From Pedosphaera sp. (GTDB taxonomy: Bacteria; Verrucomicrobiota; Verrucomicrobiia; Limisphaerales; UBA1096), in NCBI GenBank assembly GCA_022451065.1, contig JAKUOU010000023.1, positions 1 to 63,472 of the forward strand: DNA of 63,472 nt, in the 5' to 3' direction. Each line of letters begins with the position of its first letter. The stretch's first letter is position 1. Both the position numbers and the translations under genes were made by a program. Below the pieces are notes generated by a model. That model had not been told where the DNA came from. It saw only the letters and a list, made by a program, of their open reading frames with translations, and ran no database searches. Below, piece by piece: positions 1,360-57,894 of this stretch.

Positions 1360-3963
1360 ATGAGACTGGATAAACTGACCGTAAAATCACAGGAAGCGCT
1401 GCAGGCGGCGCAGGAACTCGCCCATCAACACTCGCACCAGGAGGTTGACGGCGAGCACCTCTCCCTTTCCCTAGCGAGGCAACAGGACGGCATCATCCCC
1501 ACCCTGCTCCAACGCGTCGGGGTGGACCTGGCCAAGCTTCAAGCTGACCTCGATACCGAGCTCGGCCGCCGCGCCAAGGTCGAGGGTACCAGTACGTCCG
1601 ACCTTTATCTTAGTAGCGAACTCAAGCAGGCGCTCGACGCAGCACATGCCGAGGCGACGCAGCTGGGCGACGAGTACGTCAGCACCGAGCACTTGCTGCT
1701 TGGTCTGCTGGCCAAGGGTGGCCCGGCGCTTGGCCGCGTATTCGACAATCACAACCTCCGGCGCGATGGCCTGCTTGATGCGCTTGGCCAAGTGCGCGGC
1801 AACCAGCGTGTCACCGACCCCAATCCGGAGGACAAGTTCCAGGCGCTGGAAAAATACGGCCGCGACCTCACCGCCCTAGCCAGGCAGGGTAAAATCGATC
1901 CCATCATCGGGCGAGACGAGGAAATCCGCCGCGTGATGCAGGTGCTCAGCCGCCGCACGAAGAACAACCCTGTGCTCATCGGCGAGCCGGGCGTTGGCAA
2001 GACCGCCATCGCCGAGGGTCTGGCCCGGCGCATCGTTAGTGGCGACGTCCCGGAGTCGCTCAACAACAAGACATTGATCGCGATGGATCTCAGCGCGATG
2101 ATCGCCGGCGCAAAGTACCGCGGCGAATTTGAGGATCGCCTCAAGGCCTTCATCAAGGAGATCACAGCCAGTGACGGTCAGATCATTTTGTTCATCGACG
2201 AACTGCACACACTCGTCGGTGCCGGAGCCGCCGAAGGCGCGACCGATGCCGCCAACATGCTCAAGCCGCAACTCGCCCGCGGTGAACTACGCTGCATCGG
2301 CGCAACCACACTCGACGAGTACCGCAAACACATCGAGAAAGACCCCGCCCTCGAGCGCCGTTTCCAACCGGTTAAAGTAGACGAGCCGACCGTCGAAGCC
2401 TCCATCGCCATTTTGCGCGGACTAAAGGAACGCTACGAGGTGCACCACGGCATCCGCATCCAGGACACCGCGCTTGTGTCCGCCGCCACCCTCTCCCACC
2501 GGTACATCACCGACCGCTTCCTGCCTGACAAGGCGATCGACCTCATCGACGAGGCGGCGGCTCGACTGCGGATGGAACTCGACTCGATGCCGACCGAGAT
2601 CGACCAACTCGAGCGACAGATCATGCAGTTCGAGATCGAGCGCACGGCATTGAAGAAGGAGAAGGACGCCGCCAGCAAGAAGCGCCTGGTCAAACTCGAG
2701 GAAACCCTGGCCAAGCTGAAGGAGGAAACCAACACATTAAAAACAAGCTGGCAGGACGAGAAGGCATCCATCAACGCCGCCAGCATCGTCAACAGCCAAC
2801 TCGAGGAGGCGCACCGCGAACAGGAAAAAGCCGAACGCGACGGCGACCTCAACCAAGCGGCGCAAATTCGATACGAGACGATCCCCGGCCTCGAGAAGAA
2901 ACTAGCCGAGATGCAAGAGTCGTTGAAGCAGTCAGGGCAAACCAAGCGGCTGTTGCAGGAGGAAGTCACCGATGAAAACATCGCCGAGGTCGTCGCTGCG
3001 TGGACCGGCATTCCCGTGGCCAAGATGCTCGAGGGTGAACGCCAAAAACTCGTCCACATGGAGGAGCGTATCGGTGAACGAGTCGTCGGCCAGGCCGAGG
3101 CCATCCAAGCCGTCGCCGATTCAGTGCGCCGTGCCCGGAGCGGTTTGCAGGATCCGAACCAGCCGGTCGGCTCTTTCATTTTTATGGGCCCGACCGGCGT
3201 CGGTAAGACCGAGCTGGCCCGCGCGTTGGCTGAGTTTTTGTTCGATGACGAGTCGGCGCTGGTGCGTATCGACATGAGCGAATACATGGAGAAACACACC
3301 GTTGCGCGGCTCATCGGCGCGCCGCCGGGCTACGTCGGCCACGAGGAGGGCGGCCAACTCAGCGAGACTGTCCGCCGCAAGCCGTACAGCGTGGTGCTCT
3401 TCGACGAAATCGAGAAGGCGCACCCAGACGTCTTCAATGTCTTCCTCCAGGTGCTCGACGACGGCCGCCTCACCGACGGTCAGGGACGCACGGTCGATTT
3501 CCGCAACACCATCGTTATCATGACTAGTAACATCGGCTCGCACATCATCCAGGAATATTTTCTCGACGGTAAAACAAGCGGTACCGACCGGCTGGACATG
3601 GAGCAAAAAGTCGAGGCTGAGTTGAAGGCACACTTCCGACCGGAATTCCTCAACCGCATCGACGACACGATCGTGTTTCACAGCCTTGACGAGGAGCAAC
3701 TGGCGGTGATCATCGACATCCAGTTGAGGGAGGTGGCCAGGCGGCTCGAAACGCAGCAACTCACGTTTGAGGTCAACAACGAGGCCAGGCAGCACTTGGC
3801 ACGGGAAGGCTACGATCCGCAGTTCGGCGCACGGCCGCTCAAGCGCACCGTGCAGGAGCAGTTGCTCAACCCGCTGGCCGCGCGACTGCTTGACGAAGAG
3901 TTCAAGCCGGGCGACCACATTCGCGTGCGCCTGGCAAACGACGAACTGGCCTTCGAAGCGTAA
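1360..3963 (+). CDS. clpB: ATP-dependent chaperone ClpB
   Basis: Clp N-domain, two AAA+ modules ([16 protein letters not shown]), coiled-coil middle domain, [11 protein letters not shown] and GARPLKR motifs, 867 aa. Confidence 0.97.
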
Positions 3964-3970
3964 GCCGATC

Positions 3971-4606
3971 TCAGCCCGCTTGTTTGGCCAAGCGCTTGAC
4001 CGGACCGATGTGGAGGCCGATGAATTGATCGAGATAAACGGCCAAGCGGCGAAGCTGCTCCTCGCTCGGCCGCAGCTTGGCCAAGCTGTCCCAGTCGGTT
4101 GTGGCCATTGTTGCGGCAACGGCGCGTGTGCCATCGTCGAGCTTGGCCTTGGCCCAATCCGGCTCCTGCCCCTGGGCGGCGAGAAGCTTCACTTCAAACA
4201 CGCCGAGCCAAAACTCCCCCGCTCCCCCGGTGTTGAGCCGAGTCACCAGTTCCAGCAACAAGCTGAACTCGGCCCGAAGCGGCGTCTGCTCCTCGGTGCA
4301 CCGCGCAAGCAGCCTGGTCGCCCGGGCGAGGCAGTCGAGCAGGTTCACGTCGGTACGGAGATTGGGGAACGGCTCTTTCAGCACGACCTCGCAAAGCGTG
4401 TGCAGGTCGGAACGCCGACTGCGGCGGAAGCTAAACTCCGCCAGATGAAACAGGTCGAGCTTGCCCCGGAACGCCGACCTAGGCCGGCGCGCCCCCTTGG
4501 CCACGGTGCCGATACGGCCAGCCTCGGGGCTAAGCCAATGGACGACAAGACTGGTTTCCGTCAAAGGAAAAAGCCGCAGGACCAGGCCGGTGGCACGCTC
4601 ATCCAT
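3971..4606 (-). CDS. recO: DNA repair protein RecO
   Basis: Start reassigned to ATG 4606 (MDERATGLVLR...ETSLVVHWLS...GRI..VAKGARR), the typical RecO OB-fold N-terminus; overlaps the DUF502 stop. Confidence 0.85.
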   Translation of the reverse strand: MDERATGLVLRLFPLTETSLVVHWLSPEAGRIGTVAKGARRPRSAFRGKLDLFHLAEFSFRRSRRSDLHTLCEVVLKEPFPNLRTDVNLLDCLARATRLLARCTEEQTPLRAEFSLLLELVTRLNTGGAGEFWLGVFEVKLLAAQGQEPDWAKAKLDDGTRAVAATMATTDWDSLAKLRPSEEQLRRLAVYLDQFIGLHIGPVKRLAKQAG

Positions 4607-55586: not shown

Positions 55587-55719
55587 TTCCCGCCAAAAGC
55601 CCGCTCGCAGTGGCAGATTTTTTTGCGCTTGCACAGTCGCTTGGCTTCATTTTTTTTGTCCCAAAAGCATCCACCGTTGACCATTGCCAGCTAAAACCGC
55701 AGTCTCTGCCGCCGGTTAT

Positions 55720-57894
55720 ATGCAGCATACAATCTTGTTCATCTGCACTGGCAATGTCTGCCGCAGCCCGATGGCCGAGGGCCTGTTCAAGAATCTTGTC
55801 GATCAAAACAAGGCAGACCTCATCGTGATATCTGCCGGCGTGGGCGCCCAGAACGGCCAACCGCCAAGCGAGAACGCGATCCGTGCCATGCAGGATCTCG
55901 ATATCGACATCTCCCCGCAGCGTAGCATGATGATGACTGCCGCAATGGCCTCCGAGGCCGACATGATCATCGGCATGACGCACGGCCATATCGAGATGGT
56001 CAACCTCATGTTTCCTCATACGGCAGAAAAGACCTTTCTGCTGCGAGAATTTGATGACTCCCTGCCCCTGCACGAGCGGGAAATCTCCGACCCCATCGGC
56101 TGTTCCTACGAGATCTACTGCCAATGCCGCGACCAGATTCGTGAAGGCATCGATTCGCTTTTGAAATTCATTCAGAAAAACGATGGACCGATTGTCGGCT
56201 CGACGCAACCGATGGTGGAAATGGCCCTCGGCGCAGACCACGCCGGCTACGGGCTAAAGAAAATCCTGGGGAATTACCTAGGGGAAAAAGGCATCGCGTA
56301 TACCGACTTCGGTTGCAACTCGGAGGACAAAGCCGACTACCCAGACTTCGCCCGTGAGGTGGCCCAAACTGTGGCCGACGGGCAGAGCCGACTTGGCCTG
56401 CTGATCTGTAACACCGGCATCGGCATGAGCATGAGCGCCAACAAGGTGCCCGGCATAAGGGCCGCGCTCGCACATGACGAGCAAACCGCCCGGCTCACCC
56501 GCCAACACAACAACGCGAACGTCCTCTGCCTCGGGGCCGCCGCAACGGATGAGGCCTTGGCCAAGAGCATCCTCGACACGTTCATCGAGACCCGGTTCGA
56601 GGACGGCGGCCGCCACGAGCGGCGGGTGAACAAGATGGAGCCTGATGCCGACTCGGCAGCCAGACAGCTACACTCGGTGGATGCCGAGATCGCTCAGGTG
56701 ATCCGCGCCGAGACCGACCGCCAACAGGAAAACATCGAGCTAATCGCGAGCGAAAATTTCACCAGCCCGGCTGTCATGCAGGCGCAGGGCTCGGTGCTCA
56801 CCAACAAATACGCCGAGGGCTACCCGGCCAAGCGCTGGTACGGCGGCTGCGAGCACGTAGATGTCGCTGAGCAATTGGCCATCGAACGCGCCCGACAGCT
56901 TTTCGGCGTCGAGCACGCTAACGTGCAACCCCACTCCGGCAGCGGGGCCAATATGGCTGTTTACTTTTCCGCGCTCCAACCGGGCGACAAGATCCTGACC
57001 ATGGACCTGTCCCACGGCGGACACCTCACCCACGGCAACAAGGCCAACTTCTCGGGACGATTCTACGCGGTCACCCACTACGGCGTGAACCAGGAAACCG
57101 AACAAATAGATTATGACGAGCTGGCCAAAGTAGCAGCCAAGGAAAAACCGGCCATGATCACGGTCGGGGCCAGTGCCTACCCACGCGTCATCGACTTCGA
57201 TCGCATGGGGCAAATCGCCCGCGGGGTGGGTGCGCTGCTGCTGGCCGACATTGCCCACATTGCGGGACTGGTTGCCGCCGGCTTGCACCCCAGCCCGGTC
57301 GGCCATGCTGACTTTGTCACCACAACCACCCACAAGACCCTGCGCGGACCCCGGGGCGGGCTCGTTCTTTGCGGCGCGAAACACGCCAAGGCGATCGACT
57401 CCCAGACCTTCCCCGGCATTCAGGGCGGCCCGCTGATGCACGTCATCGCGGCGAAGGCGGTTTGCTTCAAGGAGGCCCTCCAGCCAGCCTTCGCGGTGTA
57501 TCAGGCCCAGGTCGTGACCAACGCAGCGGCCTTGGCCAAGGGCTTAGCCAAAAACGGTTTCCGGCTCGTCAGCGGCGGCACGGATAACCACCTGATGCTG
57601 GTGGACGTCGGCTCCCGTGACATGACCGGCAAGGAATGCCAGAGCGCGCTCGACGAGGCCGGCATCACAGTCAACAAGAATACCATCCCCTTTGAGACGC
57701 GTTCCCCCTTCCAAGCCAGTGGGATACGGATTGGTTCACCCGCCGTAACCACGCGCGGCATGGGCGAGCCCGAGATGGCCGACATTGCTGATATGATTAG
57801 CGAGGTGCTGTTCGACATAAATAATGTTGACAAACAGGCCGCCGTCAGGCAGCGTGTCCGGCAACTGACCGCAGGATTCCCCTTGGTATATTAA
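55720..57894 (+). CDS. glyA: triple fusion: low-molecular-weight phosphatase + ribose-5-phosphate isomerase B + serine hydroxymethyltransferase
   Basis: Start ATG 55720; P-loop [13 protein letters not shown] and DPIG; RpiB motifs GADHAG, DYPD, CNTGIG, HNNANVL, GRHERRV; SHMT motifs [28 protein letters not shown]; single uninterrupted frame. Confidence 0.93.

What the first reader, a model, noticed from the sequence alone, without database searches (positions are those of the whole stretch)
1783..57540. Highly iterated palindrome CTTGGCCAAG: candidate HIP1-like or uptake-sequence-like system
Seen: exact CTTGGCCAAG at 1783, 4076, 5729, 7215, 8826, 20425, 33558, 36138, 36761, 37913, 49571, 51217, 51301, 56556 and 57531 (manual scan, may miss some), plus dozens of one-mismatch copies. 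Flanks often extend the dyad: GCGCTTGGCCAAGCGC at 36135, CCGCTTGGCCAAGCGG at 49568, CACTTGGCCAAGTG at 51215, AGCTTGGCCAAGCT at 4074. A rough independent-base estimate gives about 0.1 expected copy per 63 kb. The word is read as Leu-Gly-Gln in some genes and Leu-Ala-Lys in others, and also lies in intergenic/promoter DNA (37913), which argues against amino-acid selection alone. Established: cyanobacterial HIP1 (GCGATCGC) and the Neisseria/Pasteurellaceae uptake sequences behave this way. Inference: a DNA-level process (methylation-directed repair, nucleoid-protein binding, recombination or uptake) maintains the motif. I do not recall such a motif described for this lineage.
Basis: partly seen in the sequence, partly recalled or inferred. 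Interest (0 to 1): 0.88.

Follow-up and report, generated by a model that had tools for sequence, protein, structure and literature searches.

The report
Genus-wide iterated palindrome tied to competence genes
A 10-12 base palindrome occurs about a thousand times in this marine Verrucomicrobiota genome and up to 3,286 times in sister species, and it thins out in the lineages that have lost their DNA-uptake genes, so it looks like a new kind of self-DNA uptake signal.

Summary
All 15 CTTGGCCAAG sites are present where about 0.1 is expected. The genome (a 3.48 Mb MAG, Verrucomicrobiota) holds 1,019 copies against about 20 expected. That is 13 times more than synonymous-codon shuffles give. The copies lie in all three reading frames and are twice as dense between genes. 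The selected unit is about GCTTGGCCAAGC, and nothing is conserved beyond 3 bases either side, so it is not a mobile element.

All 26 species of the genus are enriched. Twenty carry 766-3,286 copies, G041 carries 427, and a sister clade of five AT-rich species carries 41-65. Sixteen genomes from other families of the order are not enriched.

Unlike cyanobacterial HIP1, no DNA methyltransferase accompanies the motif. Instead it tracks competence genes. At least one of comEC, dprA or comM, intact or as a remnant, was found in 19 of the 20 motif-rich genomes. None was found in the seven lowest-density genomes, and their syntenic slots, where checked, are empty in unbroken contigs, this genome included.

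The motif makes Leu-Ala-Lys and Leu-Gly-Gln the most over-represented tripeptides.

Best reading, at about 0.5: a palindromic, methylation-independent signal linked to transformation, like an uptake sequence.

The parts
1783..1792 (.). Exact CTTGGCCAAG inside clpB (1360-3963 +), read CTT-GGC-CAA-G (Leu-Gly-Gln)
   Evidence: The same alignment position carries the motif in 10 of 21 genus clpB sequences.
4076..4085 (.). Exact site in gene 3971-4606 (-), Leu-Ala-Lys frame; the flanks extend the dyad to AGCTTGGCCAAGCT
5729..5738 (.). Exact site in gene 5300-5800 (-), Leu-Ala-Lys frame
7215..7224 (.). Exact site in gene 6825-7937 (-), Leu-Ala-Lys frame; a one-off copy lies 21 bp upstream at 7194
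8826..8835 (.). Exact site at the start boundary of ORF 8827-9894 (+)
20425..20434 (.). Exact site in the Kdo-transferase-like gene 20167-21381 (-), Leu-Ala-Lys frame. It is the only exact site between 8.8 and 33.5 kb, a stretch that includes the lower-GC part of the window.
33558..33567 (.). Exact site in gene 31881-33692 (-), Leu-Ala-Lys frame
36138..36147. Exact site with the full 16-base dyad GCGCTTGGCCAAGCGC. It is intergenic by my gene calls but lies inside the longer ORF 36072-37895.
36761..36770 (.). Exact site in the metallophosphatase gene 36183-37895 (+), Leu-Ala-Lys frame
37913..37922 (.). Exact site in the 18-bp spacer and start of the prepilin-like gene 37914-38753 (+)
49571..49580 (.). 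Exact site in gene 49115-50224 (+), Leu-Gly-Gln frame; the dyad extends to CCGCTTGGCCAAGCGG. It is also present in G002 and G010 at the same alignment position.
51217..51226 (.). Exact site in the sodium/solute symporter gene 50506-52371 (+), Leu-Gly-Gln frame. It is shared with 6 of the 11 other genomes aligned at that position.
51301..51310 (.). Exact site 84 bp further on in the same gene, Leu-Gly-Gln frame
56556..56565 (.). Exact site in ORF 55771-57894 (+), Leu-Ala-Lys frame
57531..57540 (.). Exact site in ORF 55771-57894 (+), in the glyA part, Leu-Ala-Lys frame

Best explanation
CTTGGCCAAG is the core of a highly iterated palindrome, about GCTTGGCCAAGC and weakly SCG-CTTGGCCAAG-CGS. It is specific to one uncultured genus of marine Verrucomicrobiota. 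I read it as a self-DNA signal used in natural transformation, the functional counterpart of the Neisseria DUS and the Pasteurellaceae USS. On this reading, a component of the uptake or processing machinery prefers DNA that carries the word. Fragments with better matches are taken up and recombined more often, so the word spreads through the chromosome by molecular drive. It overrides codon preference and even changes amino acids. When a lineage loses comEC, dprA and comM the drive stops and the word decays by mutation.

Shown here: the enrichment, its DNA-level nature, its distribution across the genus, the absence of methyltransferases, the co-variation with three competence genes, the real deletions of those genes, the above-background conservation of sites, and the imprint on the proteome.

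Inferred: that the link is causal, that it acts at uptake rather than after uptake, and that a dimeric receptor explains the palindrome.
For: 1. Size and nature of the enrichment. The genome holds 1,019 copies against 20.4 expected under an order-3 Markov model. The 12-mer occurs 415 times against 2.3 expected. Genes hold 824 copies against 61.7 +/- 6.8 in 30 synonymous-codon shuffles. Each frame is enriched: 454, 315 and 55 copies against 35.4, 25.3 and 1.0. Intergenic density is 0.563/kb against 0.262/kb in coding DNA. The motif uses the non-preferred codons TTG, CTT and CAA. There is no flank conservation beyond +/-3 bases.

2. Distribution. The motif is present in 26 of 26 genus genomes. 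Twenty carry 766-3,286 copies, G041 carries 427 and five carry 41-65, while the reversed-word control gives 1-19. Sixteen genomes of other families in the order carry 0-48 copies against controls of 2-31.

3. Competence genes. ComEC was found in 14 of 26 genomes, DprA in 14 of 26, and full-length ComM in 13 of 26, with remnants in 3 more. Every one of these hits is in a motif-rich genome. Nineteen of the 20 rich genomes keep at least one of the three, or a remnant. None was found in G000, G041 or the five motif-poor genomes.

4. The absences checked are real. The comEC slot is empty in contiguous contigs of G000, G041, G001, G004, G008 and G024. The dprA slot is empty in G000, G041, G008 and G001. 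comM is excised in G000, although G002, 94% identical in DNA, keeps comM and comEC. In the five rich genomes without a ComEC hit, the locus is unassembled or sits at a contig end.

5. Polarity. ComEC is present in 5 of 5 outgroup families tested, so these are losses. G041 is nested inside the rich clade. This gives at least three independent losses.

6. Graded decay. Density is 0.012-0.023/kb in the poor clade, 0.13/kb in G041 and 0.29/kb in G000, below the 0.37-0.92/kb of the other rich genomes. The share of exact copies among all copies within one mismatch follows the same order: 0.13-0.17, 0.275, 0.342, then 0.355-0.71.

7. Traits shared with USS. LAK (observed/expected 3.46) and LGQ (3.25) rank 1st and 2nd of 1,653 tripeptides. 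Amino-acid replacements create the word at orthologous positions. Sites are kept between G000 and G002 at 71-78% against 59% for background 10-mers. Low-GC 10-kb windows carry about a third of the density of high-GC windows.

8. A protein-level trace. LAK is still the 1st or 2nd most over-represented tripeptide (2.3-2.6) in the poor clade, which has almost no DNA motif. It is unremarkable in three outgroup samples.
Against: No uptake or transformation experiment exists, and the organisms are known only as MAGs.

The co-variation rests on about three independent loss events, so it is a correlation. It is also confounded with falling GC content: GC3 is 0.32-0.40 in the poor clade, 0.57 in G041 and 0.71 in G000, against 0.71-0.84 in the others.

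The predicted excess of motif loss in G000 relative to G002 is only a trend, 52 against 37, p = 0.14.

G011 has a comM pseudogene, and no ComEC or DprA was found in it, yet it keeps a high density of 0.71/kb.

ComEC occurs in outgroup families that have no motif, so the competence machinery alone does not make the word, and no sequence-specific receptor was identified. Secretin and ComEA-like HHH_3 genes are present in rich and poor genomes alike. The prepilin-like family has 39-61 paralogues in each genome, which gives no usable signal.

Known DUS and USS are not palindromes.

Motif density in G002 sequence that G000 lacks is about the same as in shared sequence.
Confidence: 0.5

Rival explanations
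1. The motif is linked to transformation but acts after uptake. It would be a recombination enhancer like Chi, or a mark that protects or loads incoming single-stranded DNA. It would spread through biased gene conversion rather than biased uptake.
For: It rests on the same co-variation with comEC, dprA and comM. DprA and ComM act after uptake. The abstract of bioRxiv 10.1101/2024.09.10.611283 proposes both an uptake/processing role and a Chi-like role for HIP1. GC3 falls together with the motif in lineages that lost competence, as expected if recombination also drives GC-biased conversion.
Against: Known Chi sites are asymmetric and depend on orientation (recalled, not tested here), whereas this word is a palindrome. 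Nothing in the sequence data separates the uptake step from the recombination step.
Confidence: 0.15
2. The motif is a HIP1-type, methylation-linked palindrome. An orphan methyltransferase would mark GGCC, TGGCCA or the whole word, and methyl-dependent repair or another methyl-dependent function would favour it.
For: It is a GC-centred palindrome at a density like that of HIP1. The core contains GGCC and TGGCCA, which are typical methyltransferase targets (recalled). The abstract of Elhai 2015 (PMC4390886) reports that alternate HIPs come with a matching methyltransferase. GC-to-AT transitions in the central GGCC are common among decayed copies.
Against: PF00145 was found only in G010 and G008. 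PF01555 and PF02086 were found only in G008, which is motif-poor. PF02384 gave only 20-25 bit hits in open frames of 283-313 aa (which I take, unchecked, to be HemK-like) in 6 genomes. G000 has no hit to any of the four families. Twenty motif-rich MAGs would all have to lack the same gene by accident. This model does not predict the link to competence genes unless methylation acts through transformation.
Confidence: 0.1
3. The motif is an array of binding sites for a dimeric nucleoid-associated or chromosome-organising protein specific to the genus, maintained by selection on chromosome structure.
For: A palindrome suits a homodimer. Sites are kept above background between species. There are fewer long gaps than a random model predicts, although fragmented contigs bias that count.
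Against: Known site-specific organisers use tens of sites, not thousands (recalled). Individual sites turn over quickly between motif and one-off states among close species. This model does not predict loss together with comEC, dprA and comM in three lineages. No candidate protein was identified.
Confidence: 0.12
4. The pattern is a by-product of protein-level selection for Leu-Ala-Lys and Leu-Gly-Gln, of codon or base composition, or of a dispersed mobile element.
For: LAK is over-represented even in the motif-poor clade, at 2.3-2.6. This could mean that a LAK-rich proteome came first and seeded the word.
Against: Synonymous shuffles that keep every protein sequence give 61.7 copies against 824 observed. 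Intergenic density is higher than coding density, and three frames are enriched. The codons used are not the preferred ones. Flanks beyond +/-3 bases are at background. The reversed-word controls give 1-19 copies.
Confidence: 0.03

Closest known systems
DNA uptake sequences: Neisseriaceae DUS and Pasteurellaceae USS
   Same: Both are short words of about 10-12 bases at roughly 0.3-0.9 copies per kb. Both are specific to a genus or family. Both occur in coding DNA in several frames as well as intergenic DNA. Both inflate the tripeptides they encode: here 3.3-3.5-fold, against 'approximately doubled' in the abstract of PMC2817400. Both are poorer in compositionally atypical DNA. Both are tied to the presence of competence genes.
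   Different: This word is a perfect palindrome, whereas DUS and USS are asymmetric (recalled). The phylum is different (Verrucomicrobiota). No uptake bias has been measured and no receptor such as the ComP minor pilin was identified. Here natural losses of competence are visible together with graded decay of the word.
Cyanobacterial HIP1 (GCGATCGC) and alternate HIPs
   Same: Both are GC-rich palindromes at about one copy per kb, in genes and between them, and conserved above expectation. HIP1 has recently been proposed as an uptake recognition sequence because it correlates with DNA-transfer genes (abstract of PMC13756078) and enhances transformation (abstract of bioRxiv 10.1101/2024.09.10.611283).
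   Different: The sequence is unrelated, and HIP1 itself is not enriched here (177 copies against 170 expected). HIP1 and the alternate HIPs come with matching methyltransferases, and the HIP1 effect on transformation depends on methylation. Here no methyltransferase accompanies the word. The word is longer, at 10-12 bases against 8.
Dispersed repeats of the REP/MITE type
   Same: Both are palindromic and both have many copies.
   Different: REP and MITE elements are longer and intergenic (recalled). This word has no conserved flanks, and 83% of its copies lie inside genes.

Membership tests
Uptake signal sequences (DUS/USS) | Short word hundreds to thousands of times over-represented genome-wide, beyond what codon and amino-acid usage explain | tested here: met
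   1,019 copies against 20.4 expected (order-3 Markov). 824 copies in genes against 61.7 +/- 6.8 in synonymous shuffles.
Uptake signal sequences (DUS/USS) | Confined to a clade of related species and shared within it | tested here: met
   Enriched in 26 of 26 genus genomes. The 16 genomes of other families in the order are not enriched.
Uptake signal sequences (DUS/USS) | Host has the natural-transformation machinery, and the word depends on it | tested here: met
   At least one of ComEC, DprA or ComM, or a remnant of one, is in 19 of 20 motif-rich genomes and in none of the 7 lowest-density genomes. Clean syntenic deletions were confirmed. This is a correlation resting on about three independent losses.
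Uptake signal sequences (DUS/USS) | Cells preferentially take up DNA that carries the word | not testable with these tools
   This needs uptake or transformation assays. The organisms are known only as MAGs.
Uptake signal sequences (DUS/USS) | A sequence-specific receptor, such as the ComP minor pilin | tested here: inconclusive
   Secretin and HHH_3 (ComEA-like) genes are present in rich and poor genomes alike. The prepilin-like family has 39-61 paralogues per genome with no clear orthologue pattern.
Uptake signal sequences (DUS/USS) | Imprint on proteome tripeptides | tested here: met
   LAK is at 3.46 and LGQ at 3.25, ranks 1 and 2 of 1,653 tripeptides. GQA, AKR and RLA follow, matching the flanking bases.
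HIP1 / alternate HIPs of cyanobacteria | Highly iterated GC-rich palindrome at about one copy per kb | tested here: met
   0.29 copies/kb here and up to 0.92/kb in sister species.
HIP1 / alternate HIPs of cyanobacteria | A cognate orphan DNA methyltransferase is present wherever the palindrome is abundant | tested here: not met
   G000 has no hit to PF00145, PF01555, PF02086 or PF02384, and 19 of the 20 rich genomes have no credible DNA methyltransferase hit. G010, which is motif-rich, has one C5 enzyme. G008, which is motif-poor, has several. Other or novel methyltransferase families were not tested.
HIP1 / alternate HIPs of cyanobacteria | The sequence GCGATCGC, in the phylum Cyanobacteria | tested here: not met
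   GCGATCGC occurs 177 times against 170 expected. The lineage is Verrucomicrobiota by its best PNPase matches.
HIP1 / alternate HIPs of cyanobacteria | Sites conserved between related genomes above background | tested here: met
   71-78% of sites are kept, against 59% for all 10-mers, over 506 kb of G000/G002 alignment (p = 6.5e-4 and 3.5e-7).
REP/MITE dispersed repeats | A conserved element longer than the core, mostly intergenic | tested here: not met
   Base frequencies return to background beyond +/-3 bases. 843 of the 1,019 copies lie wholly inside genes.

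The most novel reading that the evidence does not exclude
This would be an uptake-signal-type sequence in a phylum (Verrucomicrobiota) where my literature searches found none described. 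It is palindromic and works without methylation. The genus also preserves the whole life cycle of such a signal: accumulation against codon preference with rewriting of proteins, at least three independent losses of comEC, dprA and comM, graded decay of the word afterwards together with a fall in GC content, and a lasting Leu-Ala-Lys trace in the proteome of a clade that has lost almost all the DNA copies. If so, transformation alone can sculpt both the sequence and the composition of a genome. It would also mean that cyanobacterial HIP1 and the proteobacterial uptake sequences are instances of one general phenomenon.
Probability: 0.4. Interest if true: 0.88.

Novelty: new variant of a known kind. 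Interest (0 to 1): 0.8.

Why it matters
Confirmed uptake sequences are known from only two proteobacterial families. The function of cyanobacterial HIP1 has been debated for thirty years and has only recently been tied to transformation.

A third, unrelated case would matter for three reasons. It lies in an uncultured marine phylum. It has no methyltransferase. It comes with natural "knock-outs" of the competence genes at three different ages.

This makes two long-standing questions testable by comparative and population genomics:
- whether such words spread by molecular drive through uptake and recombination rather than by selection on each site;
- how fast they decay, and what they leave behind, once the drive stops.

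The parallel fall in GC3 in the lineages that lost competence also bears on whether recombination-linked biased conversion sets bacterial GC content. In practice, the word is a sharp marker for binning and for recognising foreign DNA in this genus. It would also be the first thing to put on DNA meant to transform these bacteria.

Tried and rejected
**High-order Markov models.** Orders 5-7 predict 261, 574 and 842 copies, and the maximal-order ratio is about 1.0. I reject this as evidence against enrichment, because the 6- to 9-base sub-words are themselves mostly copies of the motif.

**An AT-rich dialect in the motif-poor clade.** TTAGCTAA and CTTTAGCTAA looked enriched in 443 kb. Whole-genome counts of CTTTAGCTAAAG are 2-7 against controls of 0-3, so this is rejected. 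The signal is Leu-Ala-Lys written in AT-rich codons.

**Methyltransferase link.** Four Pfam families were searched across all 26 genomes and none tracks the motif.

**Receptor hunt.** HHH_3 and secretin families are present in rich and poor genomes alike. A prepilin-like protein deleted in G000 has 39-61 paralogues in each genome and no usable orthologue signal.

**Other deletions in G000 relative to G002.** Over 622 kb these are two prepilin-like genes plus a LamG protein, sulfatases, DUF1552/PSD proteins, a BCCT transporter, an FG-GAP protein and a HAD hydrolase. None is clearly a competence gene.

**Asymmetry test.** This test asked whether the motif is decaying in G000 relative to G002. 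The counts are 52 against 37, p = 0.14. The direction is as predicted but the difference is not significant. Polarising the changes with an outgroup was not possible within the fetch limits.

**Viral contigs.** No contig listed is rich in the motif, so the scan is uninformative.

**Spacing.** There is an excess of 20-200 bp distances (105 against 43 expected) and a deficit of gaps over 8 kb. The deficit is biased by short contigs, so I draw no conclusion on periodicity.

**Not available or not run.**
- No 16S gene was found in the MAG.
- Supplementary files of papers were not opened. Those of PMC13756078 and PMC4390886 may list palindromes in other phyla that I could not see.
- The rest of the phylum outside this order was not scanned for the word.

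Full report
**1. The observation**

Dinucleotide-preserving shuffles of the window give a mean of 0.10 copies and never more than 2. With one mismatch allowed there are 44 sites, 15 exact and 29 one-off, against 2.98 expected. By my own rough gene calls, 8 of the 15 are read xxC-TTG-GCC-AAG (Leu-Ala-Lys) and 4 are read CTT-GGC-CAA-G (Leu-Gly-Gln). One is intergenic and two lie on gene-start boundaries.

**2. The whole genome**

The window is contig C146 of a MAG of 3,481,013 bases in 244 contigs. It is 86% complete, has 2.65% contamination and 56.6% GC. The genome holds 1,019 copies, or 0.29 per kb. Every one of the 25 most frequent 10-mers overlaps the motif.

An order-3 Markov model expects 20.4 copies, a 50-fold excess. 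The 12-mer GCTTGGCCAAGC occurs 415 times against 2.3 expected. The next most frequent 10-base palindrome has 128 copies and is built from the same half-sites. HIP1 (GCGATCGC) is not enriched, at 177 against 170. Markov orders 5-7 predict 261-842 copies, but only because the sub-words are themselves copies of the motif.

Aligning 1,018 of the 1,019 sites gives the consensus S-C-G-CTTGGCCAAG-C-G-S. Base frequencies return to background beyond three bases on each side, so this is a short word and not part of a longer repeat.

**3.

Using 2,826 rough gene calls, 843 copies lie wholly in genes, 150 lie wholly between genes and 26 straddle a boundary. Density is 0.262 per kb in genes and 0.563 per kb between them.

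Copies within genes number 454 in the Leu-Ala-Lys frame, 315 in the Leu-Gly-Gln frame and 55 in the x-Trp-Pro-x frame. Thirty shuffles of synonymous codons within each gene give 61.7 +/- 6.8 copies (maximum 76) against 824 observed. The per-frame shuffle means are 35.4, 25.3 and 1.0. The word uses non-preferred codons: TTG is 19% and CTT 14.5% of Leu codons against 31.5% for CTG, and CAA is 38% of Gln codons. The force acts on the DNA.

**4. Lineage and distribution**

The best matches to the window's PNPase are MAGs titled Verrucomicrobia or Verrucomicrobiia, at 95% and then 69-70% identity. The family, as held in the collection, is a single genus of 26 species.

- Twenty species, G000 included, carry 766-3,286 copies (0.29-0.92 per kb).
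- G041 carries 427 copies.
- Five species (G001, G004, G006, G008, G024) carry 41-65 copies.
- The reversed word, as a control, gives 1-19 copies.
- Sixteen genomes from 16 other families of the same order carry 0-48 copies against controls of 2-31.

The 12-mer follows the same pattern. The five poor species form the sister clade of the rest. They are AT-rich, at about 40-45% GC. In 443 kb of their DNA the word is still about 10 times over its order-3 Markov expectation, 7 copies against 0.69, and is among the most over-represented 10-base palindromes. G041 is nested inside the rich clade in a concatenated protein tree of 7,019 columns, with support of 1.0 on the relevant splits.

**5. Site dynamics**

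I built codon alignments of clpB for 21 genomes and of 15 window genes for up to 19 genomes. They show positional hot spots where many species carry either the word or a one-off variant. Close relatives flip frequently between the two states.

Amino-acid replacements create the word. Examples are R-R-A-K-V to R-L-A-K-V, L-S-Q-I to L-G-Q-V, and L-A-R-E to L-A-K-E. A few sites are shared with the poor clade.

Over 506 kb of alignment between G000 and its nearest relative G002 (94.0% identity), 130 sites are shared, 52 are in G002 only and 37 are in G000 only. Sites are kept at 71-78%, against 59% for all 10-mers (p = 6.5e-4 and 3.5e-7).

**6. No methyltransferase**

I searched four Pfam families across all 26 genomes.

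- PF00145 hit only G010 and G008.
- PF01555 and PF02086 hit only G008.
- PF02384 gave only 20-25 bit hits in open frames of 283-313 aa (which I take, unchecked, to be HemK-like) in 6 genomes.
- G000 had no hit to any of them.

This is the main difference from HIP1 and the alternate HIPs, which come with matching methyltransferases (abstract and passages of PMC4390886). Other or novel methyltransferase families were not tested.

**7. Co-variation with competence genes**

ComEC (PF03772) was found in 14 of 26 genomes and DprA (PF02481) in 14 of 26. ComM (TIGR00368) was found above its cut-off in 13 of 26, with fragments in G020 and G005 and a pseudogene in G011. All of these hits are in motif-rich genomes. 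The G019 proteins have the expected domain architectures.

Nineteen of the 20 rich genomes keep at least one of the three genes or a remnant of one. The exception is G000. None of the three was found in G000, in G041 or in the five poor genomes.

The absences checked are real:
- The comEC slot, between conserved neighbours, is empty in unbroken contigs of G000, G041, G001, G004, G008 and G024.
- The dprA slot is empty in G000, G041, G008 and G001. In G000 a 0.5 kb AT-rich filler occupies it.
- comM is excised in G000 at a point where G002 keeps it, and G002 also keeps comEC next to flanks that are 97% identical.

In contrast, in the five rich genomes without a ComEC hit the locus is unassembled or ends at a contig break. 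ComEC is present in 5 of 5 outgroup families tested, so the absences are losses. With G041 nested in the rich clade, that gives at least three independent losses, and possibly a fourth beginning in G011.

About 3% of G002's genes are cleanly deleted in G000 (my estimate). The loss of all three competence genes by chance is therefore unlikely, of the order of 1e-5.

**8. Graded decay**

| Lineage | Copies per kb | Exact copies as a share of all within one mismatch | GC3 |
|---|---|---|---|
| Poor clade | 0.012-0.023 | 0.13-0.17 | 0.32-0.40 |
| G041 | 0.13 | 0.275 | 0.57 |
| G000 | 0.29 | 0.342 | 0.71 |
| The other 19 | 0.37-0.92 | 0.355-0.71 | 0.71-0.84 |

The seven genomes without competence genes are the seven with the lowest density. 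Kinship means this amounts to about three independent contrasts, not seven. The fall in GC is a confound, or possibly a second consequence of lost recombination.

**9. Imprint on the proteome**

In G000, LAK (observed/expected 3.46) and LGQ (3.25) are the first and second most over-represented of the 1,653 tripeptides with at least 200 occurrences. GQA, AKR and RLA follow, and these match the flanking bases of the motif.

In the poor clade LAK is still first or second, at 2.3-2.6, although the DNA word is nearly gone, and LGQ is at 1.0-1.2. In three outgroup samples LAK is unremarkable, at 0.98-1.86. That control is noisy, because it uses only long ORFs from high-GC DNA. I read the poor-clade signal as a protein-level trace of a formerly abundant word. 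The reverse order, a LAK-rich proteome that seeded the word, is not excluded.

**10. Interpretation**

The anatomy and behaviour match uptake signal sequences. The abstract of PMC2817400 reports a doubling of the encoded tripeptides, no uptake sequences in genes lacking homologues, and little constraint on protein function. The link to comEC, dprA and comM points to transformation.

Recent work proposes the same for HIP1, on the basis of a correlation with DNA-transfer genes and of transformation enhancement, which in that case depends on methylation (abstracts of PMC13756078 and bioRxiv 10.1101/2024.09.10.611283).

I therefore favour a transformation-linked self-DNA signal that spreads by molecular drive, at a confidence of about 0.5. 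The molecular-drive model is recalled from the USS literature and was not read here. A post-uptake role is the nearest rival.

Results against this reading:
- There is no experiment.
- There are only about three independent contrasts, and they are confounded with GC.
- The G000/G002 asymmetry is not significant (52 against 37, p = 0.14).
- G011 has a comM pseudogene but a high motif density.
- Outgroups have ComEC without the word.
- No receptor was found.
- A palindrome has no precedent among proven uptake sequences.

**11. Novelty**

Six full-text searches found no paper describing this word as an iterated motif. They also found no paper that ties uptake sequences to Verrucomicrobia, and none that mentions iterated palindromes together with that phylum. 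I rate this a new variant of a known kind. It belongs with uptake sequences and HIP-type words, but it is in a new phylum, it is palindromic, it has no methyltransferase, and its loss can be read from natural variation.

Noticed in passing
G000 contigs C232 (about 6189-6838), C201 (5689-6210) and C182 (about 27690); none is in the window: This genome has cleanly lost comEC, dprA and comM by three separate deletions since it split from a relative that is 94% identical. The dprA slot now holds a 0.5 kb AT-rich filler with a small membrane-protein-like ORF.
   Followed up: yes
Whole genus: GC content ranges from about 40% to about 62% within one GTDB genus. GC3 runs from 0.32 to 0.84. The AT-rich lineages are the ones without competence genes, which may bear on recombination-linked GC bias.
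   Followed up: partly
Genome-wide: A second palindrome, CCAAGCGCTTGG, is made of the same half-sites in swapped order. It occurs 90 times against 1.6 expected. Of these, 37 adjoin a full motif and 53 do not. It corresponds to Ala-Lys-Arg-Leu-Ala, and its origin is not settled.
   Followed up: partly
Window 37914-38753, 52533-53420 and 53780-54604; also genome-wide: These genes encode proteins with a prepilin-type N-terminal methylation motif, one of them with a DUF1559 domain. The family has 39-61 matches in each of the five genus genomes searched.
   Followed up: partly
Window 55684-57894 (+): One open frame runs through three units without a stop: a low-molecular-weight phosphatase or ArsC-like part, RpiB, and serine hydroxymethyltransferase. 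I did not resolve whether this is a fusion or three in-frame genes.
   Followed up: no
Window about 15000-30000: This lower-GC stretch (0.49-0.52) carries a single exact motif. It encodes CysN-like and PAPS-reductase-family proteins, a Kdo transferase, and a MacAB-type ABC exporter with three permease paralogues.
   Followed up: partly
L233 (G011:C90), about 2222-2893: comM in G011 is a pseudogene. Residues 35-303 are deleted internally and there are two in-frame stops. The contig also carries many ambiguous bases.
   Followed up: yes
L210 610-5469 (G002:C2): A 4.9 kb segment is present in G002 and cleanly absent from G000. It encodes two prepilin-like proteins and a 998-aa LamG/Ig protein. 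Any link to competence is unknown.
   Followed up: partly
Window 59647-61863 (-): The longest MutL ORF has about 110 residues upstream of the start of the family match. The true start is probably near 61560.
   Followed up: no
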